A stretch of DNA of 64,000 nucleotides from a virus: positions 32,001 through 96,000 of the IMG/VR virus record IMGVR_UViG_3300025288_000012. One strand, 5' to 3'. This document shows positions 25,318 through 62,359 of this stretch, in pieces. The notes beneath the pieces were generated by a model. The model ran no database searches. It was not told where the DNA came from and was given only the letters and a program-made list of their open reading frames with translations. The first letter of the stretch is position 1. Each line of letters starts with the position of its first letter. The position numbers and the translations under genes were made by a program.

Positions 25318-25429
25318 TTGACCCTGTAAAATTACGAATAGAACTGTAAAGGATCAAGTTCGGTTACATTTCAAATTCACCCTCGCTTTGTGTAATTTCA
25401 ACTTCACATACAATATTTAGGAAGCACAA

Positions 25430-25477
25430 ATGCACATGACGCTGCTCGGTCTTGATCCTGGGAAAAACAATGGCTAG
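25430..25477 (+). pseudogene. Orphaned 5' stub of a RuvC-like gene
   Basis: ATG..TAG reads MHMTLLGLDPGKNNG*, i.e. the RuvC first motif (hhhxDPG); AGGA upstream; overlaps the ATG of the next gene. Confidence 0.65.
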
Positions 25478-31746: not shown

Positions 31747-31747
31747 C

Positions 31748-32179
31748 ATGATAGCATTTGATCTCGATGGAGTACTGCAGCCTGATTTGCGATACACGAA
31801 AAACTTCAACCTGGTAGAGGTTAACTCCGTAAGGAATCTAATGATTCCCTTGTACCAACCCAAAGGAAAATGGTGTATCATAACTTCAAGGTCGATGGAG
31901 GATGCAGACGAGATAGCACGGTGGATTGACAAGTCATTTGAAGTTAAACCTGCGCTTGTAGTTCAGTCTTGCAGAGAAGGTGAGATTAGCAGCGTGTACA
32001 AGGCACGCATGTTGGACAGGTACACGAACATAACTGCCTATATTGAGAGTGACCATGAAACTGCTTTGGACATAAAGGCAAACATGGTTCGCAGAGATTG
32101 TGCTATACTGTCATTGACCAATCTATTGGATAGAGCACTTAGCGAATCCATGATTCTCACAACTATATTCGCGGTGTAA
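31748..32179 (+). CDS. HAD-superfamily hydrolase
   Basis: N-terminal FDLDGV, ITSR, YK, YIES. Confidence 0.7.
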   Translation: MIAFDLDGVLQPDLRYTKNFNLVEVNSVRNLMIPLYQPKGKWCIITSRSMEDADEIARWIDKSFEVKPALVVQSCREGEISSVYKARMLDRYTNITAYIESDHETALDIKANMVRRDCAILSLTNLLDRALSESMILTTIFAV

Positions 32180-32182
32180 GCT

Positions 32183-32677
32183 ATGAAAAAATTTCTTGTT
32201 GACTACGCGACCTTCCTTTCGGGTACACGCTCTTTGGCATCTACGTTGGGTAACGTTGGCCTCGTGCTTACGTTGCCTCGAGGTGGTATGTCCTTCGCAC
32301 ACATACTCAGTCTAGAGTGTGGATGTGCCTGCAAAATGCTGGACTTGGATATAAAGAACATCGACCTAGAAAGCTACATCGAGCGTGCTGTTGAAAACAA
32401 AGGGCACATAGTAATAGCTGACGATTCCATAGGGACGGGAGCTACTTACGAACGAATCAAACGGTTGATGGAGTTAATGCCTGTAACTTGGGTGTACGCA
32501 GTGTTCTACGTAGACGGTGCGTTCAACTCCGAAGACAAAGAGATCAAGTACGTCATGAAGACAAATCAATGGGTTGTACTTCCGTATGAGGACCCTGAAC
32601 TGATCGAAGTTGGAAATCAGAATAGCCTGTTTCGCAACGGAACTGATCCGTACCAAGCCACTCGAAGGAAAGGGTAA
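32183..32677 (+). CDS. Type I phosphoribosyltransferase (purine PRTase-like)
   Basis: LPRGG loop, PRPP motif IVIADDSIGTGAT, WVVLPYE. Confidence 0.8.
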   Translation: MKKFLVDYATFLSGTRSLASTLGNVGLVLTLPRGGMSFAHILSLECGCACKMLDLDIKNIDLESYIERAVENKGHIVIADDSIGTGATYERIKRLMELMPVTWVYAVFYVDGAFNSEDKEIKYVMKTNQWVVLPYEDPELIEVGNQNSLFRNGTDPYQATRRKG

Positions 32678-34736: not shown

Positions 34737-35693
34737 ATGTCGAACATTATTGTCACGGGCGGTGCAGGTTTTATTGGTGCAGGTCTAGTCAGGAAGTTGT
34801 TGGAACTGCAAGACGTAAAGTCACTGGTAATAGTTGATTCGTTCCTTACAGGCGACGAGCGCAATATTCCAGAAGACTCACGAGTACAAGTCATGCAGAA
34901 GGACGTTATTGAGGTGCAGCCGCAGGACTTTAGTAAGGTGGATCAAATTTACCACCTTGCATGTCCTGCAAGTCCTGTCTGGTACGAGCGTGATCCGGTC
35001 CATACCATCAAGTCTGCCTTCGTCGGAACCTTGAACATGCTCAATGTTGCGAAGGTATACGACGCGAAGATTCTCATTACGTCTACGTCTGAAGTTTACG
35101 GTGATCCTGAAGTGTCTCCGCAAAAAGAGTCGTACAACGGAAACGTACCTATCAATGGAACTCGTTCATGTTACGACGAAGGCAAACGTGCAGCTGAAAG
35201 TCTTGCATTTGACTTCTGGCGTATGTACCGCACTGAAATCAAAATTGCTCGCCTGTTCAACACCTATGGTCCTAAGATGTTGGATAACGATGGAAGGGTA
35301 GTTAGTAACTTCATTGTGCAGTCGTTGAAAGGGCTGCCTGTAACCATCTACGGTGATGGAAGTCAGACTCGTTCGTTCTGCTACATTGACGACACGGTGG
35401 ACTTCCTTATTAAGTTCATGCGCAGTGACCGGCACATTACGGGACCGATAAACGTAGGCAACCCTACCGAGTTCACGATAAAAGATCTGGCAGAGAAAGT
35501 GTCTTCCATGGTAAGCGTCTTAACAGGTTACGCTCCAAAGTTCGTGTTCAACAAACTTCCGAGTGACGATCCGAAGCAACGAAAGCCCGATATCACTAAG
35601 GCTAATGAGTTGCTGGGATGGGCTCCCATAGTTGGCATTGACGAAGGCTTGGAAAAGACCATCAAATATTTCATCACGGAGGGACTGGCATGA
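34737..35693 (+). CDS. UDP-glucuronate decarboxylase / UDP-xylose synthase-like extended SDR
   Basis: TGGAGFIG, HLACPASP, STSEVYGDP, RSCYDEGKRAAE, FNTYGP, DGRVVSNF, DDPKQRKPDI. Confidence 0.88.
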   Translation: MSNIIVTGGAGFIGAGLVRKLLELQDVKSLVIVDSFLTGDERNIPEDSRVQVMQKDVIEVQPQDFSKVDQIYHLACPASPVWYERDPVHTIKSAFVGTLNMLNVAKVYDAKILITSTSEVYGDPEVSPQKESYNGNVPINGTRSCYDEGKRAAESLAFDFWRMYRTEIKIARLFNTYGPKMLDNDGRVVSNFIVQSLKGLPVTIYGDGSQTRSFCYIDDTVDFLIKFMRSDRHITGPINVGNPTEFTIKDLAEKVSSMVSVLTGYAPKFVFNKLPSDDPKQRKPDITKANELLGWAPIVGIDEGLEKTIKYFITEGLA

Positions 35694-36151
35694 CTGAGAA
35701 ACTTGGACAACAGGTTTTCATAGACCCGAGTAAGAAGGACTACTTGGTTAGAATGGACCTTGATACGGTTGGTCTAGGTAAGACTCAACCACTTATCCTT
35801 ACAACCGGCGAGACTCTAATCTTTGTGAAGTTCGCACTTCCGGGTATTCATTGCTACCCCGATGCACCTGATGACGTAAGCTACCTTCGTAGTCCTCACC
35901 GTCACCTATTTCACTTCAAGGTCGGTGTTCCCGTTAACCACGCAAACCGTGAAATCGAGTTCCATCAGTTCTTGAACTGGTGTAAGTCACTTTTCACGGA
36001 GAGCATCCTAGACTTGAGTTACAAGTCCTGTGAAATGATTGCGCAGGACGTAACAAATGCAGTCTTCGGCAAGTATGCAGTAAGCAAATGCGTGGTTGAG
36101 GTCTGGGAAGATGACGAATGTGGAGCAGTGCTAACCACGTCCAGAATCTGA
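35690..36151 (+). CDS. QueD-like T-fold protein (DpdL-type motif)
   Basis: GIHCYP..YLRSPHRHLF..REIEF..SCEMIA..VEVWED; LxxxHRHxF motif. Confidence 0.65.
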   Translation: MTEKLGQQVFIDPSKKDYLVRMDLDTVGLGKTQPLILTTGETLIFVKFALPGIHCYPDAPDDVSYLRSPHRHLFHFKVGVPVNHANREIEFHQFLNWCKSLFTESILDLSYKSCEMIAQDVTNAVFGKYAVSKCVVEVWEDDECGAVLTTSRI

Positions 36152-36454
36152 TAGAAGGGAAGGCATAATGGACATTACGCGCATCCGCAGATAGGTTTTT
36201 GCACCAAACAGCGATGGTGGTCGAAGAAGTAGTGAGTGAGCCAAAAAGCAACCTACGCTACGAAAAAAGAGAAGCTTACGTTTCTAGCCTCTCATAACGC
36301 TTGGTGTGGTAGCTGTGTTAGTCGGATCATTGATCTATGGTCTGGTAAGGGGAAAGCTTCCTATAAAGGACTTAATTAGTCAACTCGGTCCAACAAACAA
36401 GCAGGAATGTTGCTTGGATATTGGGTACGGGACAATCAAACGTAAAGGTTCACC

Positions 36455-38275
36455 ATGATAAACCCAGCAAAATCGAAAAAGACTTCTGGCTTGCCTGATC
36501 CAGTACGGGCTGCAAAAGGTCTTAGCCTCACTAAGTTATGGAGGAGTACTCCAGCTTACTTCAAGAACAAGTCAAGGGATGACGATGTTCGTCTAAAGGC
36601 GTACAAGCTTACCCAGACTAAAGGTGGCATGCCTGCAGTAGTAGCAAAGGCTACCAGTTTAGCGCAACGCCCACCACGTAGTATTCATACCTGTAGCATC
36701 ATAGGTCTGGATAAAGAGGTACCGAAGCTTAGTGCGCAGAAACGTGTTCTGGTTAGTTGTGGGTGCGAATCCTATACGTTCACATGGGAGTATGCGAACT
36801 GGACGTGGGGAGCCTCAAAGATACTGTACTCAAACGGTGATCCTGCAGTTGTGAAGAATCCAGGCAACAAGCCTGGTGTGTGTATTGCAAAAAATGCGCT
36901 AGTAACAACTGAAGAAGGTGAAAAGTTAATACAAGATGTAAAAGAAGGGGATTCTGTTCTTACACTCGAGGGTTATAGAACGGTAATCGCAGCAAGAAAA
37001 ACGGGTATTAAAAAAACTAGGAAAGTAGTTACTTCCGGTGGTCACTCTCTTCGGCTGACTAACGAGCACAAAGTACTTGCTTTCGATACTAGATTTAGAT
37101 GGAAGAAAGTTAAATTTTTGAAATCTGGTGATTTCGTTTTCCAGGAAAAGGCAAAAATACAATCCACGACGTTCTACCAAATAGACTCAGAAGGATTCCT
37201 TGCGGGGCTACTTATAGCCGAGGCAGACGAGTCTGGATACGCACCTGTAGAACCGATGGTGAAATCCCTGCTAGAGAAACACTTCAAGAAAGTTTTTGGA
37301 ACTAGCCCAGCGTATACTAATGCTGAGGCTCAACATATCCAGTTGTCAAACATCGACGAAGTAAGTAAAAAGTTAGGCTTTGTGTATACCGTTTCAGAAA
37401 AACAAAGAATACCTTTAGAGTTTCAGACAAGGGACTTAGACTTTAGAAGGTCCCTTATATATGGTCTGTGGATGGGTGATGGTCACATTGCTGTAGAAGG
37501 TTCTTACGCCTCTTACGGATCGACAAGTTTAGAACTAGCCAGGGATGTGCAAAATATACTCAGGTCGTGCGGAGTCTACTCAAGAATATGGGAAAATGAA
37601 GAATCCACCCTAGACCCCTTATATCACGTAAGAGTTCCACCCTCAAGTATTGGGGCCTTCCTCAGCTGTATTTGGAAGTACAAAAGTACCTTTGAAAAGT
37701 ATGGTAATGGTTCCCCCACTAACGGTGTGGAAAATACTTTAGGGATACCACTGAAAGCCTGGGCTAGATCCGTACGCAAATCAGTATTCAAGGATTTGGT
37801 ACCAGAAGATACGGGCGATACGTATCACCTAATACGCGGAGAAACTACGGATACCGGTAAAGTATTAGCGTACCTAATAGCCAATCATGACCAAGAGTTA
37901 CTAAAGGTCATGCTTCCTGGAAGCTTTAAACCCAGCTACTGCGCTAAAAAAGGGCTAATAACGTATGCCTCCCTACAAGTACGCAGGAAGACTAGTTTAA
38001 GAATGGTTCCATCCTGCCCCGATACCTCTAATCTCAGACTCAAGGAGTGGTTAACTTCCATTAAGGTACCTCATGCGCAGCTTGATATACTTAGAAGTAT
38101 TCTTCGCTCTGGTGCCACAGCCGAAAAGGTCGAAGCAGTTTCGTGGATGGGGAAAAGCGAAGTATATGATCTTGAGATTGAAGGAGCCCATCACTTTCTA
38201 GCTAACGGTTTTGTAGTGCATAACTGTAAGCACTTGGTTGAGCTTATACGAACAGTAATGGAGCGTAAGGACTAA
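36455..38275 (+). CDS. Small SWIM-type Zn-finger protein (~158 aa mature) interrupted by an intein
   Basis: Spliced product contains VSCGC ... PGV|CKHL (CxC..CxH). Confidence 0.75.
   Translation: MINPAKSKKTSGLPDPVRAAKGLSLTKLWRSTPAYFKNKSRDDDVRLKAYKLTQTKGGMPAVVAKATSLAQRPPRSIHTCSIIGLDKEVPKLSAQKRVLVSCGCESYTFTWEYANWTWGASKILYSNGDPAVVKNPGNKPGVCIAKNALVTTEEGEKLIQDVKEGDSVLTLEGYRTVIAARKTGIKKTRKVVTSGGHSLRLTNEHKVLAFDTRFRWKKVKFLKSGDFVFQEKAKIQSTTFYQIDSEGFLAGLLIAEADESGYAPVEPMVKSLLEKHFKKVFGTSPAYTNAEAQHIQLSNIDEVSKKLGFVYTVSEKQRIPLEFQTRDLDFRRSLIYGLWMGDGHIAVEGSYASYGSTSLELARDVQNILRSCGVYSRIWENEESTLDPLYHVRVPPSSIGAFLSCIWKYKSTFEKYGNGSPTNGVENTLGIPLKAWARSVRKSVFKDLVPEDTGDTYHLIRGETTDTGKVLAYLIANHDQELLKVMLPGSFKPSYCAKKGLITYASLQVRRKTSLRMVPSCPDTSNLRLKEWLTSIKVPHAQLDILRSILRSGATAEKVEAVSWMGKSEVYDLEIEGAHHFLANGFVVHNCKHLVELIRTVMERKD
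36881..38224 (+). mobile_element. Intein (448 aa) with LAGLIDADG endonuclease
   Basis: PGV|CIAKNALV..LTNEHKV..FLAGLLIAE, IYGLWMGDG..YDLEIEGAHHFLANGFVVHN|CKH. Confidence 0.92.
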
Positions 38276-39357
38276 TGACTTCTGAAGATTGCCTTCCGAT
38301 CCTTAAGGGATACGATAAGAACTCTCCTACTGACTCACTTACGGGTGGGCAAATTCAGAGCATGCTGGACTTGTTGATTCTAGAGTCATTAGCTCCCATA
38401 ATACGAAACTCCGATGTGTTTGACATACAACTAGTTCACCTCTTGTCTGTCACAGCTAGAAACAGAAAAAGGCGATTGTCAGCTCTTCCTAGAGAAGAGT
38501 TAATAAATGAGCTGTGTCAGGCTCTGGCCGTAAATGACAGGGCTAGAAAAATAGAGATCATAAGTCAAGCCAAGATAGAGCGAGGTTTCCTGTACAAGTT
38601 TGTAGTGAACTTCCTTCGGCAGTGTAGTGGTTATGAGAGACTGTACTATGAATACCTTACTGAGTCCTCACCAAAGAAAAGAGAGTCTCTGCATCTAAGG
38701 CTAAGGTCAACTGAAAAAGCTCTTGGGTTCAGCAGAGACCGGCTGTACAGCAGCATACAAGCATCAACGGACTACCTCGAACTGATGTACGAGTTCAGAA
38801 ACGTCATAGTTGGCAACTACATTCGGTTCGCATATCAGCAAGCTAAAATGTACGTTAGCAAAAAGGGTAGCAACTTCAACTTCAATGATGTGTACCAGAA
38901 CTTCTTGGTCATAATAACAAAGGCTATCGACAAGTATGATGCGTCCAAGGGTGCTCTAACAAGCTACGTAAAGTGGTGGATACTTAACGCCCAAACAGCT
39001 AATAATTCAGATCATGGTCACGAATACGGAATAGCATATACCTTGCCGCAGATGCAGAAAAAGAGTATGGCCACTAACGGAGTTTCAGATGGTCAGGTTA
39101 ACTTCAGCATAAGCCTTAACAAACTTGTAGGTAAGGATGGTGACGAGACTGAGTTTGGTTCGTCACTCAAAGGGAGTGAAGGTGTAGAGCACGAGCTAGA
39201 GAGAAAACAAGAGTTAGATCAAATAAGGTATCTAGTAAAGAAGGCAGACATACGAGGAATGGCCAGACTCTCATTAGAGATCGACGAATTCTTTTCAGCT
39301 AAGGAGCTTAAGCAAATGAGGGAAGTTATGAGAACGCAACTAGGAGTTACAGTATGA
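38275..39357 (+). CDS. Phage sigma-70-like RNA polymerase sigma factor
   Basis: Region 2 pattern NYIRFA..DVYQ..ITKAIDKYDASKGALTSYVKWWI. Confidence 0.8.
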   Translation: MTSEDCLPILKGYDKNSPTDSLTGGQIQSMLDLLILESLAPIIRNSDVFDIQLVHLLSVTARNRKRRLSALPREELINELCQALAVNDRARKIEIISQAKIERGFLYKFVVNFLRQCSGYERLYYEYLTESSPKKRESLHLRLRSTEKALGFSRDRLYSSIQASTDYLELMYEFRNVIVGNYIRFAYQQAKMYVSKKGSNFNFNDVYQNFLVIITKAIDKYDASKGALTSYVKWWILNAQTANNSDHGHEYGIAYTLPQMQKKSMATNGVSDGQVNFSISLNKLVGKDGDETEFGSSLKGSEGVEHELERKQELDQIRYLVKKADIRGMARLSLEIDEFFSAKELKQMREVMRTQLGVTV

Positions 39358-47853: not shown

Positions 47854-48192
47854 ATGCCAAATTTGGACCTCCGGTCCAAATTTGACGGTTCTGTAACATT
47901 CCGCCGCGCGCCCCGCCCGCCCGCCGCCCCTCCACCTCGAACGAACATACCAACCTATATGAAAATCTTTCCACTTGCCCCGTTTCATCTCCATGTACCG
48001 ACTACTAATGCTCAGATGTACTGCTGCCTAACGGAAGAAGAACTCGCAGATCGTAACCAGAAAGCAGATCTGTGCATGTTGGTCAAGAGGCTAGTGCGAA
48101 CCCTGGAAGCGGTGTCACCCAACAATGAACTTTCAACTATTGCGATGGACTTCATTAAGAATGCCACTGACATTGGTAAGCCTTTGCGATAA
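47854..48192 (+). CDS. Possible small hypothetical protein
   Basis: 112-aa ORF; the Pro-rich N-terminus crosses a hairpin and GC tract, so the true start is uncertain. Confidence 0.35.
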   Translation: MPNLDLRSKFDGSVTFRRAPRPPAAPPPRTNIPTYMKIFPLAPFHLHVPTTNAQMYCCLTEEELADRNQKADLCMLVKRLVRTLEAVSPNNELSTIAMDFIKNATDIGKPLR

Positions 48193-48274
48193 TGGAACTA
48201 GAACTTTCACTAGAACTTTCACTACAACGTTGTAGTGAATTCGGTCATTCGTGCTGAATGAAGCACGAATGACC

Positions 48275-48290
48275 CAACTATATGTTGGCT
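48275..48290 (+). promoter_or_regulatory. NrdR-box-like site upstream of nrdJ
   Basis: CAACTATATGTTGGCT fits the conserved core CwAtATaTwG with one change at a weak position. Confidence 0.3.
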
Positions 48291-48391
48291 GGGTATAGAG
48301 GAGTTTGAGCTACAGGATTTTTCCATCGTTTCATGCACTCCTGCAGATGGCTATTGCCCGTTAGTGCTAGGCATGATTACTGTAAAATGAA

Positions 48392-51300
48392 ATGTTATTC
48401 ACTACTTCGGGAATGGGCATGAACATAGGACTACAAGAAGCTTCATTTGACATTTGGGATACCAAATATCGGCTGCGTGACTCGGAAGGCAATCCAGTAG
48501 ACAAAGACCTAGAAGCCTCGCGCAGGCGTGTCGCTACTGCCTTAGCTGAAGCGGAGCCAGCCGAGATGCGAGCTAGTTACGAGAAACTCTACTATGACGC
48601 TCTGGAGTATGCTATCCCTGCTGGGCGCATCTACTCCAATGCTGGTGCATCGGATCATAAAAGAGCCGTGTCTCTAATCAACTGCACGGTCAGTGATACC
48701 ATCCAGGATTCGATGGACAGCATCCTGATGAAGCTATACGAATCTGGTCTTACGCTACGGGCAGGGTGCGGTATAGGATATGAGTTCAGTACTTTGCGCC
48801 CGAAAGGCAGTTTCGTTTTCGGTGCGGGTGCTGTAACATCAGGCCCGTTGTCCTTCATGGACGTATATGACAAGACGTGCTTCACTATTTCTTCAGCAGG
48901 TGGTCGTCGTGGTGCTCAGATGGCCACCTTCGACATTTCACATCCTGACGTACTTGAGTTCATACGGGCAAAGCGTGAGGATGGCCGTCTGCGTCAGTTC
49001 AACCTATCAGTGTTGGTTACTGACGAATTCATCCACGCCGTCAAGAATGATTTGACCTGGGTGTTTAAGTGGGATGGAAAGCCGTATGGAAATCCCATTC
49101 CGGCTAAAGAGTTGTGGGACATCATTATGAAGTCCACCTACAACTTCGCTGAGCCTGGCTTCCTCCTTGTAGACCGTATTAACCATTACAACAACCTTTG
49201 GTTCTGCGAGAACCTTCGTGCTACGAATCCTTGTGTCACAGGGGATACCTTAGTTGCAGTAGCAGGGCGTGGTCCAGTACCTATTAAGCAACTTGCTGAA
49301 GAAGGTGTAGATATACCCGTATACGGGTATGACTTTGAAACAGGAAAAACCGTAGTCAAGTACGGGCGAAACCCACGTCGAACCGGAATAGGACATAAGG
49401 TTTATCGCGTAACACTTGATGACGGTTCCTCTTTCAAAGGTAATGCTAAGCACAAAGTTCCACTACGCGATGGGTCAATAGTGGGGATTGAGGACTTAGT
49501 GGGTGGGGAAAGTCTCGTACCTTTCGTCCTAAAGGACGACCGTTATGGCACATTTGTTCAAACTACGGACGGCTATAGCAAAGACTACCAACTCCTGCTG
49601 AACTGCAAGTATTATGGCACGGATCTGGATTTTGGTACAGGTGTAGGTAAAATCCATAGTCACCACGTAGATGGTGACCACTTCAATAACGACATGGACA
49701 ATCTAGAAGCTATGTACCATGAGGAGCATACGTCCCATCATCTTACAGAAGCAAATTACGGCGTAGTCAGTCAAGGACGTGTTCAACCTCTCAAGGTTCG
49801 TAAGACAAAACACTCTAAAACCACACGTAGGTTAATCGGACTTAAGACGCTTGCTCGATTTTCTAATAACCCAGCTTTTAAAGCTAATCATCGCGCGGCC
49901 GTAGCTGAGGCAATGCAAAAACCTGAGACACGTGCTTTACTGTCAAAGGTTAAAACTAAAGATCGCCAAGTATTGAGCTGCGTGTGTGAGGGGTGTGAAA
50001 CACCTTTTAATCTTACCGTAATTGTAGGACGGACTAGCCCACAACGCTTCTGTAGTCAATCGTGTGCTGCTGCGCACAACTCAGCTATAGCTGCGAATAC
50101 ACCTCGTACCCAAGAGACGTTAGACGCAATATCAAAGGGGTCCAAAGCATTTGCAGCTACTCGAAAAGGGCGTAAGTCTAAACGTGCTGCTGGTTCTGCC
50201 TCTATTGTGCAGAGTTCCTTGAAATGTGGCTCGATGATGCTTCATCTTGGACATAAAATCTCAGCACGTACTTGGGACTCCTTGAAGTACGTTCTTCATG
50301 AGGCTGGGATCAAACCAACTATCGGTGCTGCCTGGATTGATAATCAGTGGGATGGTGACTGGAAAGCCTTCACTAAGGAGTGCAAGGCCTATAATCACAA
50401 GGTAGTAAGCATTGAGTACGTAGGGCGAGAAGACGTTTACAATCTAACTGTGGACGATGTACACAATTACTGCATAGTGACAAAGTCTTGGAAGGATAAG
50501 GGTATCACATACTGGACAGGTGTGCTGCAAAAAAATTGCGGTGAGCAACCGCTTCCCCCTTACGGGGCGTGCTTGTTGGGTTCCCTCAACCTGACCAAAT
50601 TCGTACTCAATCCGTTCACTTCAGCTGCTACCTTCGACTTTTCAAAGTATGAGGAGATCATCAAGATCTTTACCCGTATGCTGGACAACGTCGTAGAAAG
50701 TAATGGTCTTCCCTTGATCCAACAGCGTCATGAGATCGAGTCCAAGCGTCGTCACGGAATGGGTTTCTTGGGTCTCGGTTCTACCTTGACTATGCTAGGT
50801 ATGACCTATGGCAGTCCAGAGTCAGTAGCCTTCACCTCTGAGGTCACGAAATGTTTGGCCATGACCAGCTTTGATGCTGGTGTTGACCTGGCTATCGAAA
50901 AAGGTGAAGCCCCTATTCTGCAACAAGAGTTCAATTCGGTTGAGCTTCAAAATTCTCCCAATGGTCGTTTCAATACCAACATGCGGTACGCGAACGAGAC
51001 CTACACTGGTCGTCAGCTTTTGCTTCAAAGCCATTACTTCGATGCGTGGCGGAGCGACGAGAGAGGGTCAGCAATTCTCAAGCGTATCAAGAAACACGGC
51101 TGTCGGTTTACCCATGCTACGTCTTTGGCACCTACAGGCTGTTGCCTGTCCTCAACTAAAATAATAACTGATGCTGGAATAAAGTCTTATCAGTCTATTA
51201 TGGAGGAGAACGGTATTGACTGGAAGTCTATAGAAAAAACAAACGAAAAGCAATGGCTACCACTCAAGCCTTTCACCTTACCGTCACTTGATAACTATGC

Positions 51301-51478
51301 TGACAGCAGTGATAAAATTTGGTACAATGGTTACGAAGAAATTTACGAAATTGTATTTGAAGATGGCTCTATCTTTGAGTGTACTCCCATTCATAAACTT
51401 TTTGTACGAATTGGTAAACATATCGTAGAAGTTGAAGCACAATACTTGAAAGGAGACGAAGATATTGTGTCCTACTAA
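48392..51478 (+). CDS. nrdJ: Class II ribonucleotide reductase NrdJa, N-terminal fragment, with a contiguous intein and the N-half of a split intein
   Basis: PAGRI, SLINC, GCGIG, GGRRGAQM, ATNP|..|CGEQPL, GACLLGS, HATSLAPTG|C. Likely start MNIGLQ near 48419. Confidence 0.92.
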   Translation: MLFTTSGMGMNIGLQEASFDIWDTKYRLRDSEGNPVDKDLEASRRRVATALAEAEPAEMRASYEKLYYDALEYAIPAGRIYSNAGASDHKRAVSLINCTVSDTIQDSMDSILMKLYESGLTLRAGCGIGYEFSTLRPKGSFVFGAGAVTSGPLSFMDVYDKTCFTISSAGGRRGAQMATFDISHPDVLEFIRAKREDGRLRQFNLSVLVTDEFIHAVKNDLTWVFKWDGKPYGNPIPAKELWDIIMKSTYNFAEPGFLLVDRINHYNNLWFCENLRATNPCVTGDTLVAVAGRGPVPIKQLAEEGVDIPVYGYDFETGKTVVKYGRNPRRTGIGHKVYRVTLDDGSSFKGNAKHKVPLRDGSIVGIEDLVGGESLVPFVLKDDRYGTFVQTTDGYSKDYQLLLNCKYYGTDLDFGTGVGKIHSHHVDGDHFNNDMDNLEAMYHEEHTSHHLTEANYGVVSQGRVQPLKVRKTKHSKTTRRLIGLKTLARFSNNPAFKANHRAAVAEAMQKPETRALLSKVKTKDRQVLSCVCEGCETPFNLTVIVGRTSPQRFCSQSCAAAHNSAIAANTPRTQETLDAISKGSKAFAATRKGRKSKRAAGSASIVQSSLKCGSMMLHLGHKISARTWDSLKYVLHEAGIKPTIGAAWIDNQWDGDWKAFTKECKAYNHKVVSIEYVGREDVYNLTVDDVHNYCIVTKSWKDKGITYWTGVLQKNCGEQPLPPYGACLLGSLNLTKFVLNPFTSAATFDFSKYEEIIKIFTRMLDNVVESNGLPLIQQRHEIESKRRHGMGFLGLGSTLTMLGMTYGSPESVAFTSEVTKCLAMTSFDAGVDLAIEKGEAPILQQEFNSVELQNSPNGRFNTNMRYANETYTGRQLLLQSHYFDAWRSDERGSAILKRIKKHGCRFTHATSLAPTGCCLSSTKIITDAGIKSYQSIMEENGIDWKSIEKTNEKQWLPLKPFTLPSLDNYADSSDKIWYNGYEEIYEIVFEDGSIFECTPIHKLFVRIGKHIVEVEAQYLKGDEDIVSY
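49232..50536 (+). mobile_element. NrdJ intein (435 aa) at the NP|CGE site with HNH nuclease, ends KN
   Basis: NP|CVTGDTLV..HSHHVDGDHFNNDMDNL..VYNLTVDDVHNY..VLQKN|CGEQ. Confidence 0.9.
51140..51478 (+). mobile_element. Split intein N-half (112 aa) on NrdJa-N
   Basis: APTG|CCLSSTKII..FEDGSIFECTPIHKL..LKGDEDIVSY*. Confidence 0.9.
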
Positions 51479-51544
51479 GACTTAATCTGCTAGGTGCAAT
51501 CGAGCAATCATCACTGTAATTTAATGATGTTAAAATAGTGGAGA

Positions 51545-52858
51545 TTGCACCAGATGAAAAATCTACCAATAGACTGCATATTAGGTTGGTATTCCAAGTC
51601 GTTTAAGTGGTTTTCTGAGCATTCCACTTCGGAATTAAAGAGAGAACTAGTTGCACTACCTAAGTCGCAATTAAGAATTTTATACGGAACTCCAGCTGGG
51701 TATGACAACTCAATGTTTTCTAAGGTACCAGAATACGTTTTGCGAAACGGTCTTTTATACGCAAAAAAATTTAACGATAGACATGCAGCATTCAAGTACA
51801 TTAAGTATACTCTTGAGTTGGATACTTTAGACCATTTGATTCCCGGTCAGTTTGGTATATTTCTTGAGCTTTTATTGAAGCGGGGCGTTACATTGCAGCC
51901 TAAGACTAGGGAGTACGCGGTTGCAAAATACGGAGAAGCGTTAGGTCCATATTATCGTACAAAGGTTTTAGCTAAGGCAAACCCATACAGCGTAGAGGCC
52001 GTTATGACTAGGAACGGTCTATGCAAGTCTGATGCCTTAAAAGTAATAGAAGAGCGCAAGAAAGCAACTTCAGGATCTTTAGAAACTTTTGTAAAACGCT
52101 ACGGTGCAAAGGAAGGAAGTCGAAGGCACAAACTTTTCGGGCAACGCTCCTCACATACTAAAGAGAAATTTAAAGAGAAATACGGCAAAAGGTGGGCAAA
52201 GAAATGGAGATCTTATAGAAGATCGAAGGATAGCTCTTCATTAGAATTCTGGATAACGAAATTGGGTCCAGAACTCGGTCCTGCAGCGTACAAAAAGAAA
52301 ATTTTAGCCTGTACGTTTAACTACGAGGAGTGCTTGCTAAAATTTGACGGTGATGAAAAGAATGCAAGCAAATTCTACAGAGACTACTGTTTACGAAAAA
52401 CAAGACATTGGAGAGGTGCTGGTAATGGAGGTGCTCTAACAAAAGAATCTAAAAAGTTTTTCAATCCTATACTTGACTATTTGGATGAAATAGGAATTGA
52501 CTATATAATAGGTGACTCACGTGGTGGTAAAGAATACTACATCTGGGATAATTTTCAGAAGAAAATTAGGTATTATGACTTCTGCATTCCTGATATCAAA
52601 TACATAATAGAGTTTGATGGTGGTACACATCCTAGTCCTTTGCTCTCAAAAAATGAGCTTAGAACTTGGCGGTGTTTTTTAAGTGGTGTTTCAGCACAAA
52701 CCCGATTAGAAGATGACAATAGAAAAGAATACTTAGCAGTTAGAAAGGGATTCACCTTTAGCCGCATACACGTGGACGAGTTTAGGGCCGATCCACATAT
52801 GCAAATTAAAAAGCATTTGAACCAAATAACTAAACTTCTTAAAAAGGAAAGACCGTGA
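51545..52858 (+). CDS. Free-standing Vsr/DUF559-like homing endonuclease between the split-intein halves
   Basis: YYDFCIP..IIEFDGG.HP..DDNRK..AVRKGF..RIH; N-terminal SLExFxxxYG-type repeats; A-rich. Confidence 0.8.
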   Translation: MHQMKNLPIDCILGWYSKSFKWFSEHSTSELKRELVALPKSQLRILYGTPAGYDNSMFSKVPEYVLRNGLLYAKKFNDRHAAFKYIKYTLELDTLDHLIPGQFGIFLELLLKRGVTLQPKTREYAVAKYGEALGPYYRTKVLAKANPYSVEAVMTRNGLCKSDALKVIEERKKATSGSLETFVKRYGAKEGSRRHKLFGQRSSHTKEKFKEKYGKRWAKKWRSYRRSKDSSSLEFWITKLGPELGPAAYKKKILACTFNYEECLLKFDGDEKNASKFYRDYCLRKTRHWRGAGNGGALTKESKKFFNPILDYLDEIGIDYIIGDSRGGKEYYIWDNFQKKIRYYDFCIPDIKYIIEFDGGTHPSPLLSKNELRTWRCFLSGVSAQTRLEDDNRKEYLAVRKGFTFSRIHVDEFRADPHMQIKKHLNQITKLLKKERP

Positions 52859-53595
52859 AGATATCGTCAGTGCGAAAAACAGGTTTTAAGAAACCTACCT
52901 GGGATATTGAGGTAAGAGAAAAACACTGCTATCAACTTTCTAATGGAGTTTTGTCTCATAACACAATCGCTTTGTCACTGGGCGACAACTGCTCAAATGG
53001 TATCGAGCCGAGTTACTCACACAGCTACGTGCGCAACGTTATCCGCGAAGGCCGCAATGCCAAGGAAGCAGTTATGGTGTACTCTCACGAGTTCCGAGTG
53101 TACAAGCACCTAGTTGAGAACGAAGGCTTGCCCCATACTATTACACCTGAGCAGAAAGCTCAAATGATTGAGCAGGACCTAGATCCAAATGTGCCGCATC
53201 CTCGGTTCATGCCAGAGTGTTTCAGTACAACTGATACCATAGATCCTGAGCACCACATTGATATTCAAGCTGCTGCCCAAACGTGGATTGATAGCTCTAT
53301 CTCTAAGACTATCAATGTACCTACGGACTTTCCCTTCGAGAAGTTCTCAGACATCTATCTCAAGGCGTATGACGCTGGACTTAAAGGCTGTACTACGTTC
53401 CGGTTCAATCCAGAGGCGTTCAGTGGAGTCCTTGTGAAAGAGGAAGACCTGAAGAACACAAACTACACGTTCGTCCTTCAATCAGGTGAGGAGAGAACAT
53501 ACAGTGGAAATACTCTTATTGAGTATGAAGGTCAGACACAGACTGCCGCAAATCTGTTCGACGCTGTTAAAGAAAACTACTTCGGAAAGCACTGA
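52855..53595 (+). CDS. nrdJ: Split intein C-half (36 aa, 52855-52962) fused to the NrdJa C-terminal fragment
   Basis: MKISSVRKTG..TWDIEV..LSNGVLSHN|TIALSLG..SNGIEP..QTWIDSSISKTIN..LKGCTTFR. Confidence 0.92.
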   Translation: MKISSVRKTGFKKPTWDIEVREKHCYQLSNGVLSHNTIALSLGDNCSNGIEPSYSHSYVRNVIREGRNAKEAVMVYSHEFRVYKHLVENEGLPHTITPEQKAQMIEQDLDPNVPHPRFMPECFSTTDTIDPEHHIDIQAAAQTWIDSSISKTINVPTDFPFEKFSDIYLKAYDAGLKGCTTFRFNPEAFSGVLVKEEDLKNTNYTFVLQSGEERTYSGNTLIEYEGQTQTAANLFDAVKENYFGKH

Positions 53596-53596
53596 A

Positions 53597-54223
53597 ATGC
53601 ACACCACTACTCCCGCTAAAATAACCGAAAAAATTGTGTCAGTCAAGCTCAGCGAGTCGGCACCTGTTCCGCTTCAATCACTTCATGAGAAGATGAAGCG
53701 GCCCAAAAAGCTACCTGCTACTGCGTATCAACTTCGGACACCCTTGGCAAACAGTTCAGTTTACATACTCGTAAGTGACATAGTCCTTAATGAAGGAACT
53801 GCAAACGAGTCGCGTCGTCCTTTTGAGATCTTCATCAACTCCAAGGAGATGGAGAACTTTCAATGGATCGTTGCACTGACTCGTATGCTGAGTGCTGTGT
53901 TCCGTAAAGGCGGTGACGTTGCTTTTGTAGTCGAGGAACTGAAGGAAGTTTTCGATCCTCGTGGTGGTTACCTATCCAAGTCTGGTTATATTCCTTCTCT
54001 TGTAGCTGAGATCGGAATGGTATTGGAGGAGCATTTCACCATGCTGGGAATAATAAAGAAAGATGACTCGCTGACTAAGGCCATCGAGGAAAAGAAAGCA
54101 CAGCACCTAGCGAAAGGTGGGTCAATCAACGGTGCAACTTGTCCGAAGTGTGGATCCCCCACGTTGGTTCCTCTTGATGGATGCCCAACGTGTCTTACTT
54201 GTGGACATAGTAAGTGCGGCTAG
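53597..54223 (+). CDS. NrdJb-like subunit (TSCPD domain + C-terminal Zn ribbon)
   Basis: RPFEIFINSK..LTRMLSAVFRKGG..CPKC..GCPTCLTCGHSKCG; start MHTTT at 53597 (track 53486). Confidence 0.85.
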   Translation: MHTTTPAKITEKIVSVKLSESAPVPLQSLHEKMKRPKKLPATAYQLRTPLANSSVYILVSDIVLNEGTANESRRPFEIFINSKEMENFQWIVALTRMLSAVFRKGGDVAFVVEELKEVFDPRGGYLSKSGYIPSLVAEIGMVLEEHFTMLGIIKKDDSLTKAIEEKKAQHLAKGGSINGATCPKCGSPTLVPLDGCPTCLTCGHSKCG

Positions 54224-54362
54224 GCGTGGAAACGGAAGATCAAGTAGTGCCTGATGGAGCTGCTGCACCAGTCGTTAAACTCTAGCAGCTCCTGAGGAAC
54301 ATACAGCTCCTCCAACTTTCCAACTTTCCACTATCCGTAAGGGATAGCACTAAAGGTGCTCT

Positions 54363-54833
54363 ATGTTTGTTACTCGCGGTAAGCTGCTGGCTTTTGATTT
54401 CGTCAAACTAGATAGTGACTTTGACCAGGACAGACTACTAGCACGAATTAGACATTCGTTTTCAGCCCACTCTGGTTTCATTGCCTTCTACGGGTTTTTG
54501 AACTACAGCAACATTGGGCATCAACGACTAGAGCACCTTTTCAATCAACGACTCGAGTTGCATTTTGCTGACGAGAATTGTGACTTGAGGCAGACTGTTG
54601 CCGGTCCAAGATTGTTCGGCTTCGATCTTCCACTTCAACTTGGTTTCGACAAGCAAGCAAAGATCAAAGCACTGTCAGCCTTGGGCGTCAACTGCCTAAA
54701 ATGTTTGGGCACAGCTACCCCATCAATCTGGGGTAGTTCCATTATGACTGCACCAGGTGAATTTTTTAAGTCGAAGTACAACTTTCGTGCCGACAACGCA
54801 TGTACGTTAGGTGATTTTCTACTCTTGAGGTGA
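54363..54833 (+). CDS. Hypothetical protein
   Basis: 156-aa ORF, no motif recognised. Confidence 0.4.
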   Translation: MFVTRGKLLAFDFVKLDSDFDQDRLLARIRHSFSAHSGFIAFYGFLNYSNIGHQRLEHLFNQRLELHFADENCDLRQTVAGPRLFGFDLPLQLGFDKQAKIKALSALGVNCLKCLGTATPSIWGSSIMTAPGEFFKSKYNFRADNACTLGDFLLLR

Positions 54834-60671: not shown

Positions 60672-61418
60672 ATGACCACAACTCGAACAACTCGGAAAGT
60701 ATCTAGCACTTCATCCAAACCTAAGATGAAGATCGAATCGCTTGCAGTGAAGTACCGTCCTAAAGTATTGGAGGACTTGGTAGGACAGCCACACCTAGTC
60801 TCACAGCTTCGCGGCATGTTCAAGGCTGGCAAAATACCAAGTGCAATCCTTCTGGCAGGCGAATCAGGTACGGGCAAGACGACTACTGCTCGTATGATTG
60901 CACGTTATCTGAACTGCAATAACCCTGATCCAGCAACACATGCACCTTGCGGTGAGTGCATAAGCTGCAAATACGGTGATGGTCACCCTGACTTCCTTGA
61001 AATGAACATGGCCGATGCCCGAGGCATTGACGACATTCGCGGCCTTATTGCCTCGTCCAAGAACATGCCTGTCATGGGTGAGAACCGCATATTTCTTCTG
61101 GACGAGTGCTTCCCCCCAGATACAGAGATTGAGGTAGAGCCCGGTAAGTTTAGAACTATCAGCGATATATGCTCAGACCCTCAAGACGTAAACGTGCTTT
61201 CGTTTAATCATGAAACTGGTGAAGTTGAGAGTAAACAAGTTGAAGCGAAGCTCCCAAAACCATCTGATGACCGAGAAATGGTTGAAGTCATTCTAGCGGA
61301 TGGCTCTGTCCAACCTTGCACTTCAAATCATAAATGGTGGAGTGTAACACGGGGCATGATGGTAGAGGCCAAGGATCTTATGCCCGAAGAGGAGTTACTT
61401 GTCATTTACGAGTCATGA
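60672..61418 (+). CDS. dnaX: DnaX-like clamp loader N-fragment + split intein N-half (61107-61415, 103 aa)
   Basis: KYRP..DLVGQ, GESGTGKTT, C..C..C, RGIDDIR, FLLDE|CFPPDTEI..CTSNHKW..AKDLMPEEELL*. Confidence 0.92.
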   Translation: MTTTRTTRKVSSTSSKPKMKIESLAVKYRPKVLEDLVGQPHLVSQLRGMFKAGKIPSAILLAGESGTGKTTTARMIARYLNCNNPDPATHAPCGECISCKYGDGHPDFLEMNMADARGIDDIRGLIASSKNMPVMGENRIFLLDECFPPDTEIEVEPGKFRTISDICSDPQDVNVLSFNHETGEVESKQVEAKLPKPSDDREMVEVILADGSVQPCTSNHKWWSVTRGMMVEAKDLMPEEELLVIYES

Positions 61419-61480
61419 GTCCACTGAACAGTTTACCTTCTCGGTAGTGACTTTCTCAAACCCATTTAGGAACCTACACA

Positions 61481-62359
61481 ATGCGAGTCTCAACCATCAA
61501 GGTTTCGAGTGTACGCCACATCTCCATTGCGAGCAACCAGGTATTTGACTTAACAGTTAAAGACAACCATAACTTTTTCGTTCGCCCAAAAGGAGCAACT
61601 GGTTCTGTATTGGTTTCAAATTGTCACCAAATTACTCCCCAGGGAGCGCAGGCTCTTCTGAAACCTTTGGAAGAACCACCTGCGTCTACCTTGTGGATAT
61701 TGGCCACTACAAATCCTGAGAAGCTACCTCCTACTGTTCGCGGTAGATGCCATCAGTTTGAAGTGAAAGCCATAGCTCCTAACGAGCTCTCACGACGCTT
61801 GAGTCGCATTGCCCGTCTTGAGGGCATTGACACCAAGGCTATTGAGGACTGGTCAGGCATAACAAAGATCATTTCCGACCTTGCTAATGGCAGGATGCGT
61901 GACTCTATTCAGATGCTGGAGAGCGTGATCTTTGCACTCAACAGTGGAGAGGACGTTGATCCGCGTTCTGTAATCAAGACCTTCCTAAACTCTACTGAGG
62001 CTGAGCTTGACGAGAGTGCAGCCCGACTGTTGCTGGGCATAATTCAGGCAAACATGAAGGTGTGTCTGAAAGAGATTCGTGGGTGTGGTAATGCTCGTGG
62101 CTTGATGAACAAGCTGCGCTGGTTGATTGTTTACCTGACTGACAACTCGGTAGGGCTGGCTAAGTTCACCCCGTGGTCAGGCAAGGCATTTGCAAAGCTT
62201 GCACAGGGTACCGGAGTGCGGATAAACCTAGCCCTGCTGCTGAACCTCCAGTCGCTGTTGATAGAAATGGAATTCCGTTTCAACTCACTGAGCCTTGAGG
62301 AATCAATAGTCATGAGCGCTATGCTGGCTGACTTCATTACCAAGAGAAAGAACGAGTAG
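61481..62359 (+). CDS. dnaX: Split intein C-half (47 aa, 61481-61621) + DnaX C-fragment
   Basis: MRVSTIKV..VFDLTVKDNHNFF..VLVSN|CHQIT..QALLKPLEEPP..ILATT..TVRGRC..GRMRD. Confidence 0.92.
   Translation: MRVSTIKVSSVRHISIASNQVFDLTVKDNHNFFVRPKGATGSVLVSNCHQITPQGAQALLKPLEEPPASTLWILATTNPEKLPPTVRGRCHQFEVKAIAPNELSRRLSRIARLEGIDTKAIEDWSGITKIISDLANGRMRDSIQMLESVIFALNSGEDVDPRSVIKTFLNSTEAELDESAARLLLGIIQANMKVCLKEIRGCGNARGLMNKLRWLIVYLTDNSVGLAKFTPWSGKAFAKLAQGTGVRINLALLLNLQSLLIEMEFRFNSLSLEESIVMSAMLADFITKRKNE

What the first reader, a model, noticed from the sequence alone, without database searches (positions are those of the whole stretch)
51140..52962. Naturally split intein in NrdJ with a free-standing Vsr-like endonuclease between the halves
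Seen: NrdJa-N ends APTG|C plus a 112-aa acidic IntN and a stop. An A-rich 437-aa endonuclease gene follows. A GTGA-coupled gene then starts with a 36-aa basic IntC (7 K/R vs 3 D/E) ending HN|T and restoring APTG-TIAL. The halves are in different frames. Established: this is the fractured-gene layout of metagenomic split inteins such as gp41-1. Inference: active RNR needs protein trans-splicing. The Cys-Cys start, Thr+1 nucleophile and APTG|T site make it a potentially new orthogonal tool.
Basis: partly seen in the sequence, partly recalled or inferred. Interest (0 to 1): 0.82.

Follow-up and report, generated by a model that had tools for sequence, protein, structure and literature searches.

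The report
Split-intein nrdJ with homing endonuclease
A large groundwater phage encodes its only ribonucleotide reductase in pieces that most likely have to be stitched together as protein by a split intein, with a selfish DNA-cutting enzyme gene between the two halves; this layout has been known since 2009, and this is a new example at a new position in the enzyme.

Summary
The nrdJ gene of a 191-kb uncultured phage breaks at APTG|T. The upstream ORF ends in a 112-aa acidic N-intein. The downstream ORF starts at a GTG that overlaps the previous stop and opens with a 36-aa basic C-intein ending SHN|T.

- **Intein halves:** both pass NCBIfam's curated intein cut-offs.
- **Exteins:** they tile the NrdJ profile without a gap.
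- **Contiguous relative:** the two halves tile onto a 153-aa mini-intein at the same site in NrdA of cultured Campylobacter phages.
- **Gene between the halves:** it has a C-terminal domain with the Vsr / I-Bth0305I fold (Z about 10) and near-invariant D, E, H and D residues.
- **Foreign origin:** the insert is 36-38% GC, against 47-50% in the exteins.

This is the "fractured gene" layout of Dassa et al. 2009. The insertion site differs from the published NrdJ-1 site. The same intein family occurs in class I and class II reductases in three states: contiguous, split without an endonuclease, and split with one.

Trans-splicing and DNA cleavage are inferred, not shown. I rate it a new member of a known kind, of moderate interest. 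The scan had already noted a split-intein DNA polymerase in this genome.

The parts
48392..49231 (+). nrdJa extein 1 (N-terminal part of the class II ribonucleotide reductase)
   Evidence: TIGR02504 NrdJ_Z profile positions 3-281, E 2.6e-64; PF02867 and PF00317.
49232..50536 (+). First, contiguous 435-aa intein at the thiyl-radical site (ATNP|CVTGD ... VLQKN|CGEQ)
   Evidence: PF14890 E 1e-12. Boundaries set against P0008, which reads ASNPCGEQ uninterrupted. Weak HNH_3 and zinc-finger hits inside.
50537..51139 (+). nrdJa extein 2, ending ...THATSLAPTG
   Evidence: TIGR02504 profile positions 282-458, E 2.2e-47.
51140..51478 (+). IntN: 112-aa N-terminal half of the split intein (Cys1, block B TPIH) plus TAA stop
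   Evidence: TIGR01445 29.6 bits, cut-off 24.5. Aligns to residues 1-112 of the PC14 mini-intein. 62-73% identical to the IntN of two other fractured NrdJ loci that stop at the same residue.
51493..51551 (+). Hairpin in the 75-nt spacer: perfect 9-bp arms GGTGCAATC / GATTGCACC enclosing the endonuclease Shine-Dalgarno (GGAG 51540-51543), 2 nt before ATG 51554
   Evidence: Minimum free energy -19.9 kcal/mol, z -2.8, 0 of 200 shuffles as stable. Dassa 2009 found such hairpins in 15 of 16 loci.
51554..52858 (+). Free-standing homing endonuclease gene: helical repeat (DNA-binding-like) region 1-290 plus Vsr-like nuclease domain about 295-437 (residue numbers from the TTG 51545 start)
   Evidence: AlphaFold2 model, pLDDT 92. 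VIA-align Z 10.9 (3hrl), 10.6 (Vsr 1cw0), 10.2 (I-Bth0305I 3r3p, 97 of 97 residues, rmsd 2.6). D345, E356, H362 and D391 near-invariant in 90 relatives. 2370 representative relatives in the 50% identity library.
52855..52962 (+). IntC: 36-aa C-terminal half of the split intein (block F WDIEV..H, block G SHN), GTG start overlapping the endonuclease stop
   Evidence: TIGR01443 16.7 bits, cut-off 15.6. 58-67% identical to the IntC of P0011 and L002. Aligns to the C-terminal 36 residues of the PC14 mini-intein.
52963..53595 (+). nrdJa extein 3, starting TIALSLGDNCSNGIEP
   Evidence: TIGR02504 profile positions 462-602, E 7.3e-34. 41% identical to phiYS40 NrdJ from its residue 615 (TISL...).
53597..54223 (+). 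nrdJb: separate gene for the C-terminal TSCPD / zinc-ribbon part of NrdJ
   Evidence: PF12637. NF006417 profile positions 593-759 of 759. phiYS40 has the same two-gene split.

Best explanation
This is a fractured gene. A mobile element made of a class-1 mini-intein and a free-standing homing endonuclease gene sits in the phosphate-loop motif APTG|T of the phage's only ribonucleotide reductase gene, a class II nrdJ. The endonuclease gene occupies the usual endonuclease-insertion loop of the intein, so it breaks the host gene into two ORFs.

Inferred mechanism:
1. The N product carries exteins 1 and 2, a contiguous first intein and the acidic IntN. The C product carries the basic IntC and extein 3. 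Both are translated separately.
2. IntN and IntC associate, helped by opposite charge, and fold into one HINT domain.
3. Cys1, the block B Thr-x-x-His, the block F Asp, the terminal His-Asn and Thr+1 carry out trans-splicing, which restores ...SLAPTG-TIALSLG....
4. The first intein splices in cis, and NrdJb joins as a separate subunit.

The endonuclease has helical DNA-binding repeats and a Vsr / I-Bth0305I-type nuclease. It most likely cuts intein-less RNR alleles near the insertion site during co-infection, so that repair copies the whole element in.

Its own translation is probably held down by a hairpin that hides its ribosome-binding site. The C half has its own AAGGA site and a GTGA overlap with the endonuclease stop.

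Shown here: the anatomy, family membership of both intein halves, the nuclease fold, the foreign base composition and the comparative series. Inferred: splicing, cleavage, homing and regulation.
For: Anatomy.

Intein halves:
- Both pass curated NCBIfam cut-offs and cover complementary parts of PF14890.
- 112 + 36 aa tile a contiguous 153-aa mini-intein at the same site (APTA|C...SHN|T) in NrdA of Campylobacter phage PC14, with only a 3-5 residue linker missing.
- A contiguous IMG/VR relative (L025) folds as a complete HINT domain, pLDDT 96. Its best matches are the gp41-1, Npu DnaE and Aes123 PolB1 inteins. The split maps to the loop before the long C-terminal hairpin.
- Cys1, TxxH, block F Asp/His, SHN and Thr+1 are kept in every relative seen, split or contiguous.

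Host gene:
- The exteins tile the TIGR02504 NrdJ profile as 3-281 | 282-458 | 462-602, and PF02867 as 3-392 and 391-522.
- phiYS40 NrdJ reads APTG-TISL uninterrupted.
- I found no other RNR large subunit and no NrdB in the 191-kb record.

Comparative evidence:
- Two other NrdJ loci (P0007, P0008) end IntN at the same residue. P0008 shares a contig length (6497 bases) with the endonuclease homologue P0002, and P0011 shares one (19199 bases) with P0003.
- L020 and L002 show IntN-stop, a related endonuclease, and a 4-nt overlap with the IntC start.
- The intein is always more conserved than the adjoining exteins: 73 vs 57, 62 vs 49, 48 vs 26 and 67 vs 25%.
- GC is 0.36-0.38 in the element and 0.47-0.50 in the exteins.

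Endonuclease: fold and conserved residues. Hairpin. The same features are described for fractured genes in PMC2677866.
Against: - No experiment and no RNA or protein data exist for this locus.
- A profile of the endonuclease family does not reach I-Bth0305I or Vsr by sequence. The best PDB hit has E 0.33, to a DUF559-like protein. The link to that family is therefore structural and motif-based.
- The genome record is only about 78% complete, so a second, intact RNR elsewhere cannot be excluded.
- The first intein in the same gene ends in Lys-Asn instead of His-Asn. If it does not splice, the enzyme would be dead whatever the split intein does.
Confidence: 0.85

Rival explanations
1. The two intein halves no longer splice. 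They act only as affinity domains that hold the two NrdJ fragments together non-covalently, as in the phage Aeh1 NrdA split by mobE, which assembles without splicing.
For: There is a precedent for a fragmented phage RNR that assembles through interaction domains derived from a mobile element (PMC3045599, listed). The opposite net charges of IntN and IntC would serve association alone equally well.
Against: Every catalytic residue of class-1 splicing is kept here and in all relatives down to 36% identity: Cys1, TxxH, block F Asp, His-Asn and Thr+1. That is not expected without selection for splicing. The break lies inside the conserved APTG-T loop of the active-site barrel, where 148 residues of unspliced intein would be hard to accommodate (inference).
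Confidence: 0.06
2. The locus is a decaying reductase gene. The phage relies on the host RNR, and the fragments are on their way to loss, as proposed for nrdA of some Campylobacter phages.
For: Dwivedi et al. describe nrdA of Campylobacter phages as degenerating under repeated invasion (PMC3653736). This nrdJ carries two inteins plus a gene split. The first intein has an unusual Lys-Asn end.
Against: All four ORFs are open and full length, and the exteins cover the NrdJ profile completely. The same architecture is kept in loci whose exteins are 49-57% identical. The sequence is identical in every contig piece laid from four aquifer or groundwater runs, and 24 runs hold part or all of the stretch. 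The gene sits directly upstream of ORFs whose translations look like nucleotide-metabolism and replication proteins.
Confidence: 0.05
3. The 1.38-kb insert is removed at the RNA level by an intron that carries the endonuclease gene, giving a contiguous intein ORF.
For: Vsr-like endonucleases also live in group I introns, such as I-Bth0305I in recA (PMC3239194). Any excision from 51476 to 52854 would join the two halves in frame.
Against: No Rfam family, intron or otherwise, matches 48000-54500 at E up to 1. Only 75 nt lie upstream of the endonuclease ORF and none downstream, which leaves no room for an intron core. Relatives keep the stop and the start codon with only 21-87 nt between the halves and no endonuclease at all (L021, L022, L026). 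The start of IntC and the end of IntN are conserved as ORF termini.
Confidence: 0.02

Closest known systems
Fractured genes of Dassa, London, Stoddard, Schueler-Furman & Pietrokovski 2009 (gp41-1, gp41-8, IMPDH-1, NrdJ-1, NrdA-2; PMC2677866)
   Same: - A DNA-metabolism gene of a phage is split at a conserved site into two ORFs that end and begin with intein halves.
- A free-standing Vsr-like endonuclease gene lies between them.
- A hairpin lies upstream of the endonuclease start.
- The endonuclease 3' end overlaps the downstream ORF.
- IntN is negative and IntC positive, as reported for NrdJ-1, NrdA-2 and IMPDH-1.
   Different: The insertion site differs. NrdJ-1 and NrdJ-2 sit one residue after the thiyl-radical Cys site, and NrdA-1 to NrdA-7 directly before it. 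This intein sits at APTG|T, about 200 extein residues further on, at NrdJ_Z profile position 458|459. The overlap is 4 nt, against 6-69 nt. The solved NrdJ-1 intein (8ubs) is 12% identical to this family's contiguous member.
Contiguous mini-intein in NrdA of Campylobacter phages PC14 / NCTC12673 (Fletchervirus), annotated only as part of NrdA
   Same: The insertion point is homologous (APTA|C ... SHN|T). IntN is 39-40% and IntC about 51% identical to it. Length and blocks are the same, and Thr+1 is shared.
   Different: It is contiguous (153 aa, one ORF, no endonuclease inside) and sits in a class I reductase. The window's copy is split, carries an endonuclease gene and sits in a class II reductase.
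I-Bth0305I / EDxHD (Vsr-like) homing endonucleases (PDB 3R3P; PMC3239194)
   Same: - Two-part build: an N-terminal helical DNA-binding region and a C-terminal Vsr-fold nuclease.
- All 97 residues of 3R3P superpose at rmsd 2.6, Z 10.2.
- The Asp-to-His spacing is 17 residues (D345-H362), as in D196-H213.
- An extra conserved Glu lies before the His, as noted for the family.
   Different: - It is free-standing between intein halves rather than in a group I intron.
- It is 434-437 aa; the published catalytic-domain construct of I-Bth0305I ends at residue 266.
- The last conserved Asp lies 29 residues after the His, close to Vsr's 28, not 9 as for D222.
- There is no significant sequence-profile match to 3R3P.
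Cyanobacterial DnaE split intein (Npu / Ssp DnaE)
   Same: It is naturally split at the same structural position, with a similar size split (about 102-123 plus 35-36 aa). Weak direct sequence matches exist in both halves: block B, and blocks F and G.
   Different: DnaE halves are encoded far apart with no endonuclease between them. They use Cys+1, lie in a bacterial chromosome, and have the opposite host gene and charge context.

Membership tests
Intein (HINT domain, class 1 splicing) | N-terminal splicing region with Cys/Ser1 and block B Thr-x-x-His | tested here: met
   Cys1 at 51140-51142; TPIH in ...FECTPIHKLF. TIGR01445 29.6 bits against cut-off 24.5, profile positions 3-83 of 83.
Intein (HINT domain, class 1 splicing) | C-terminal splicing region: block F Asp/His, block G His-Asn, and a Cys/Ser/Thr at +1 | tested here: met
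   TWDIEVREKHCYQLSNGVLSHN|T. TIGR01443 16.7 bits against cut-off 15.6. PF14890 profile positions 122-155 of 155.
Intein (HINT domain, class 1 splicing) | The two halves together make one complete HINT fold | tested here: inconclusive
   Shown only for a contiguous relative, L025 (36% identical to IntN in the tblastn match): pLDDT 96, Foldseek probability 1.00 to gp41-1, Npu DnaE and Aes123 PolB1 inteins. The window's halves tile the PC14 mini-intein without loss.
Intein (HINT domain, class 1 splicing) | Protein splicing activity | not testable with these tools
   Needs co-expression and detection of the ligated exteins.
Fractured gene (split intein plus free-standing homing endonuclease; Dassa 2009) | The host gene is broken at one point of a conserved motif, and the exteins are seamless when joined | tested here: met
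   PF02867 profile 3-392 and 391-522. TIGR02504 profile 282-458 and 462-602. phiYS40 reads APTG-TISL.
Fractured gene (split intein plus free-standing homing endonuclease; Dassa 2009) | An endonuclease ORF of its own lies between the halves, with a 5' hairpin and a 3' overlap with the downstream ORF | tested here: met
   ORF 51554-52858. The hairpin has z -2.8 and hides the SD. GTGA overlap. The same is seen in L020 and L002.
NrdJ-1 / NrdJ-2 split-intein allele | [quoted passage not shown] | tested here: not met
   In this gene the thiyl-radical site (NP|C) holds the other, contiguous intein. The split intein is at APTG|T, NrdJ_Z profile position 458|459. It is not allelic with NrdJ-1.
EDxHD / Vsr-like homing endonucleases | Vsr-type nuclease fold in the C-terminal domain | tested here: met
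   Residues about 295-437: Z 10.6 to Vsr 1cw0 (118 aligned), Z 10.2 to I-Bth0305I 3r3p (97 of 97), Z 10.9 to 3hrl. Foldseek probability 0.99-1.00.
EDxHD / Vsr-like homing endonucleases | Conserved acidic and His active-site residues (Vsr D51, H69, D97; family Glu at Vsr F62) | tested here: met
   D345 is invariant. E356, H362 and D391 are at least 90% conserved in 90 relatives. Spacings of 17 and 29 compare with 18 and 28 in Vsr (numbers from PMC2677866). Residue-by-residue superposition was not available, so the equivalence is by spacing and motif.
EDxHD / Vsr-like homing endonucleases | Significant sequence similarity to family members | tested here: inconclusive
   There are no Pfam or NCBIfam hits. 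The family profile against PDB sequences gives only E 0.33, to 3hrl. PHROGs gives phrog_22677 at 2.2e-8 (unknown function) and weak hits to endonuclease families.
EDxHD / Vsr-like homing endonucleases | Site-specific cleavage of the element-free allele | not testable with these tools
   Needs purified protein and an intein-less nrdJ or nrdA target.
Class II (adenosylcobalamin) ribonucleotide reductase NrdJ, two-gene NrdJa/NrdJb form | NrdJ-type barrel, no NrdB partner, C-terminal part on a second gene | tested here: met
   TIGR02504 is the best family for all three exteins. Their bit scores add up to about 497 against a cut-off of 400, which is only a rough sum. There is no PF00268 in the genome record. 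NrdJb carries TSCPD. phiYS40 is split the same way.

The most novel reading that the evidence does not exclude
One intein-endonuclease element has moved between class I (NrdA) and class II (NrdJ) reductases through the shared PT(A/G)|T loop. This phage carries at least three split inteins in replication genes: DNA polymerase A, NrdJ and the clamp loader. It may use protein trans-splicing as a timed or redox-gated switch for assembling its replication machinery, rather than merely tolerating parasites.
Probability: 0.08. Interest if true: 0.75.

Novelty: new member of a known kind. Interest (0 to 1): 0.4.

Why it matters
- **Mechanism of enzyme production:** the only deoxynucleotide-making enzyme found in this large phage's record would exist only after one trans-splicing event, one cis-splicing event and one subunit association.
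- **Evolution of fractured genes:** the intein family found here spans all three states proposed in the 2009 model at one insertion site: contiguous mini-intein, split without endonuclease, and split with endonuclease. It also spans two reductase classes. That makes it a convenient natural series for studying how genes get fractured and how homing endonucleases change targets.
- **Protein engineering:** this is a candidate Cys1 / Thr+1 split intein that is far in sequence from gp41-1, NrdJ-1, IMPDH-1 and DnaE, so it is plausibly orthogonal to them. Many orthogonal split inteins already exist, so the practical gain is incremental.

Tried and rejected
I could not read the contigs of P0002-P0004 and P0007-P0009. 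Co-location of P0002 with P0008 and of P0003 with P0011 rests on equal contig lengths only.
- Single-sequence scans of IMG/VR with the endonuclease and with IntN found nothing. Alignment-based scans were needed.
- Rfam at E up to 1 found no RNA family in 48000-54500.
- No intrinsic terminator was found, and promoter-like sites were no more frequent than in shuffles.
- phmmer of the endonuclease and of its family profile against PDB sequences gave nothing significant. Pfam and NCBIfam gave nothing for it either.
- Sequencing runs: no RNA holder was listed. Four low-coverage aquifer runs showed no joints, no variants and no endonuclease-less allele. Their partial word shares came from fragmentary cover, and stretches without cover say nothing.
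- The L002 spacer does not fold better than shuffles, so the hairpin is not shown to be conserved in that relative. It does hold a TATAAATA motif.
- Literature searches for a split intein at this RNR site found no description. The searched library lacks most subscription-journal papers, and InBase could not be consulted.

Full report
**Setting.** The window is bases 32001-96000 of a 190,918-base IMG/VR virus record, which CheckV estimates as 78% complete. Twenty-four aquifer and groundwater metagenome runs hold all or part of the stretch as DNA. The finding lies in a class II ribonucleotide reductase gene. ORFs downstream look, from their translations alone, like nucleotide-metabolism and replication genes.

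ORF 48392-51478 reads ...THATSLAPTG followed by CCLSSTKII... and stops after ...GDEDIVSY.
- The last 112 residues have 20 D/E and 11 K/R.
- A 75-nt spacer follows, then an ORF of 434 aa from ATG 51554 (437 aa from TTG 51545). GGAG lies 10 nt before the ATG, and the database copy is 434 aa.
- The next ORF starts at GTG 52855 inside the sequence GTGA, so it overlaps the endonuclease stop.
- Its first 36 residues have 7 K/R and 3 D/E and end in SHN. The extein TIALSLGDNCSNGIEP follows.
- The N and C halves are in different frames. The middle ORF shares the N half's frame but is cut off from it by three stops.

**The flanks are one reductase.**
- Pfam's barrel domain is covered at positions 3-392 by the upstream ORF and 391-522 by the downstream one.
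- The three extein pieces tile NCBIfam's NrdJ model at positions 3-281, 282-458 and 462-602.
- The nearest cultured-phage homologue is Thermus phage phiYS40 NrdJ, which reads SIAPTG-TISLTFGNN without interruption.
- A further gene, 53597-54223, supplies the TSCPD / zinc-ribbon end of NrdJ. phiYS40 splits its gene the same way.
- The genome record holds no other large subunit and no NrdB.

**The inserts are two halves of one intein.**
- IntN passes TIGR01445 (29.6 bits, cut-off 24.5). IntC passes TIGR01443 (16.7 bits, cut-off 15.6).
- On Pfam's intein model they cover positions 27-93 and 122-155.
- Direct comparison with solved structures gives only weak matches to Npu DnaE, though at the right blocks in both halves.
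- The decisive comparison is with cultured phages. NrdA of Campylobacter phages PC14 and NCTC12673 carries a contiguous 153-aa mini-intein at the homologous point (APTA|C...SHN|T). The window's 112 + 36 residues align along its whole length, and only a short linker is missing.
- A second contiguous relative from IMG/VR (L025) folds with pLDDT 96 into a full HINT domain. Its best matches are the gp41-1, Npu DnaE and fused Aes123 PolB1 inteins. NrdJ-1 (8ubs) is a distant hit at 12% identity.
- Cys1, Thr-x-x-His, the block F Asp and His, the terminal His-Asn and Thr+1 are kept in every family member I saw.

**The family shows the whole evolutionary series at one site.** In IMG/VR and JGI contigs I found four states.
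- Contiguous: L018, L019, L025.
- Split with only 21-87 nt between the halves and no endonuclease: L021, L022, L026.
- Split with a small unrelated ORF between the halves: L017, L024.
- Split with a related endonuclease whose stop overlaps the IntC start by 4 nt: L020, L002.

All of these sit in class I NrdA. The window and two database proteins (P0007 and P0008, with IntN 73% and 62% identical) sit in class II NrdJ. P0009 is a class I enzyme with an ATP cone. In every pair the intein is more conserved than the adjoining extein, for example 48% against 26% and 67% against 25% across classes. The element is also 36-38% GC inside a gene of 47-50% GC. Both facts point to horizontal spread of the element.

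**The middle gene is a Vsr-like homing endonuclease.**
- It has no Pfam or NCBIfam family.
- It belongs to a large metagenomic family of 2370 representatives at E up to 0.001.
- The AlphaFold2 model has pLDDT 92. Residues 1-290 are all-helical and contain repeated ...KYG..G.. units. Residues about 295-437 form an alpha/beta domain.
- That domain superposes on a DUF559-like endonuclease (Z 10.9), on Vsr (Z 10.6) and on all 97 residues of the I-Bth0305I catalytic domain (Z 10.2, rmsd 2.6).
- D345 is invariant, and E356, H362 and D391 are near-invariant. The spacing fits Vsr D51, H69 and D97 and I-Bth0305I D196 and H213.
- Sequence profiles alone do not reach these structures, so family membership rests on fold and motif.
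- Relatives of this endonuclease in IMG/VR also sit between intein halves of other genes (L030, L038).
- In L002 the DNA-binding part is 46% identical, but the nuclease domain is of another type.

**Control elements.** A perfect 9-bp inverted repeat (51493-51501 and 51543-51551) closes a hairpin over the endonuclease's GGAG, 2 nt before its ATG. None of 200 shuffles folds as well. Dassa et al. report such hairpins in 15 of 16 loci, and overlaps between the endonuclease and the downstream ORF in 15 loci. The C half has its own AAGGA, 6 nt before the GTG.

**Rivals.**
- RNA splicing is very unlikely. There is no intron model hit and no room for an intron core. Relatives keep the split with stop and start codons and almost no spacer.
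- Association without splicing is unlikely, because the catalytic residues are conserved.
- Gene decay is unlikely. The ORFs are open, the profile cover is complete, divergent loci keep the same architecture, and the contig pieces laid from four runs are identical.

**Comparison with the literature.** The layout is that of the fractured genes of Dassa et al. 2009 (PMC2677866). The published NrdJ-1 and NrdJ-2 and NrdA-1 to NrdA-7 split inteins lie at or next to the thiyl-radical cysteine. In this gene that site holds a different, contiguous 435-aa intein. The split intein lies at the APTG|T loop, so it is not allelic with NrdJ-1. I found no paper that describes a split intein at this point. InBase was not available, and the contiguous Campylobacter-phage homologue has been in GenBank for years, annotated only as NrdA.

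**Verdict.** This is a real, well-formed fractured gene and a new member of a known kind. Its added value lies in the cross-class family and in the complete series of states. Splicing and cleavage still need the bench. The scan had already reported a split-intein DNA polymerase in this genome (e1-5804950). I found a third split intein, in the clamp loader, and about ten inteins in the genome record.

Noticed in passing
window 60672-62359 (IntN 61107-61415, IntC 61481-61621): A second naturally split intein in the window. The clamp-loader (DNA_pol3_delta2 / AAA+) gene is broken at the Walker B motif LLDE|C. It has a 103-aa IntN, a 62-nt spacer with no endonuclease, and a 47-aa IntC ending VSN|CHQ. 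PF13177 profile positions 1-109 and 104-159 are covered by the two ORFs.
   Followed up: partly
own genome G000 (window = G000 minus 32000): 24638-25918, 31687-32229, 35550-38306, 68956-70224, 82300-83469, 93487-93582, 105128-105664, 114695-115915, 118329-122393: There are 18 stretches matching Pfam Intein_splicing, which is roughly ten inteins in long ORFs of one 191-kb phage record. An 1880-aa ORF appears to hold about three. This is an unusually intein-dense genome.
   Followed up: no
window 49232-50536: The contiguous 435-aa intein at the thiyl-radical site of the same nrdJ (NP|CVTGD...VLQKN|CGEQ) has a penultimate Lys instead of His. Its insert has only weak HNH_3 and zinc-finger hits. 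Whether it splices decides whether the enzyme is made at all.
   Followed up: partly
L002 351-1298 (JGI contig Ga0272440_1018199): The endonuclease between the halves of a related NrdA split intein shares the window protein's DNA-binding repeats (46% identity over 110 aa). It carries a different C-terminal nuclease domain (...YRPDF...EIKPK), which suggests nuclease-domain swapping on a conserved target-recognition module.
   Followed up: partly
L027, L029, L031, L032, L034 (IMG/VR): Relatives of the endonuclease lie after P-loop protein fragments that stop about 15-25 residues past a ...G(C)| junction, and before ORFs with long N-terminal extensions. These look like atypically split inteins with a very short N half.
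   Followed up: no
P0007 (710 aa, from a contig listed as 440,073 bases): Another NrdJ with the same split IntN (73% identical) also carries a LAGLIDADG-containing intein at a third site...HN|CLLGSINLT. The same host gene therefore collects different inteins in different phages.
   Followed up: no
window 53593-53599: nrdJa stops at 53593-53595 and nrdJb starts at ATG 53597. [quoted passage not shown]
   Followed up: yes
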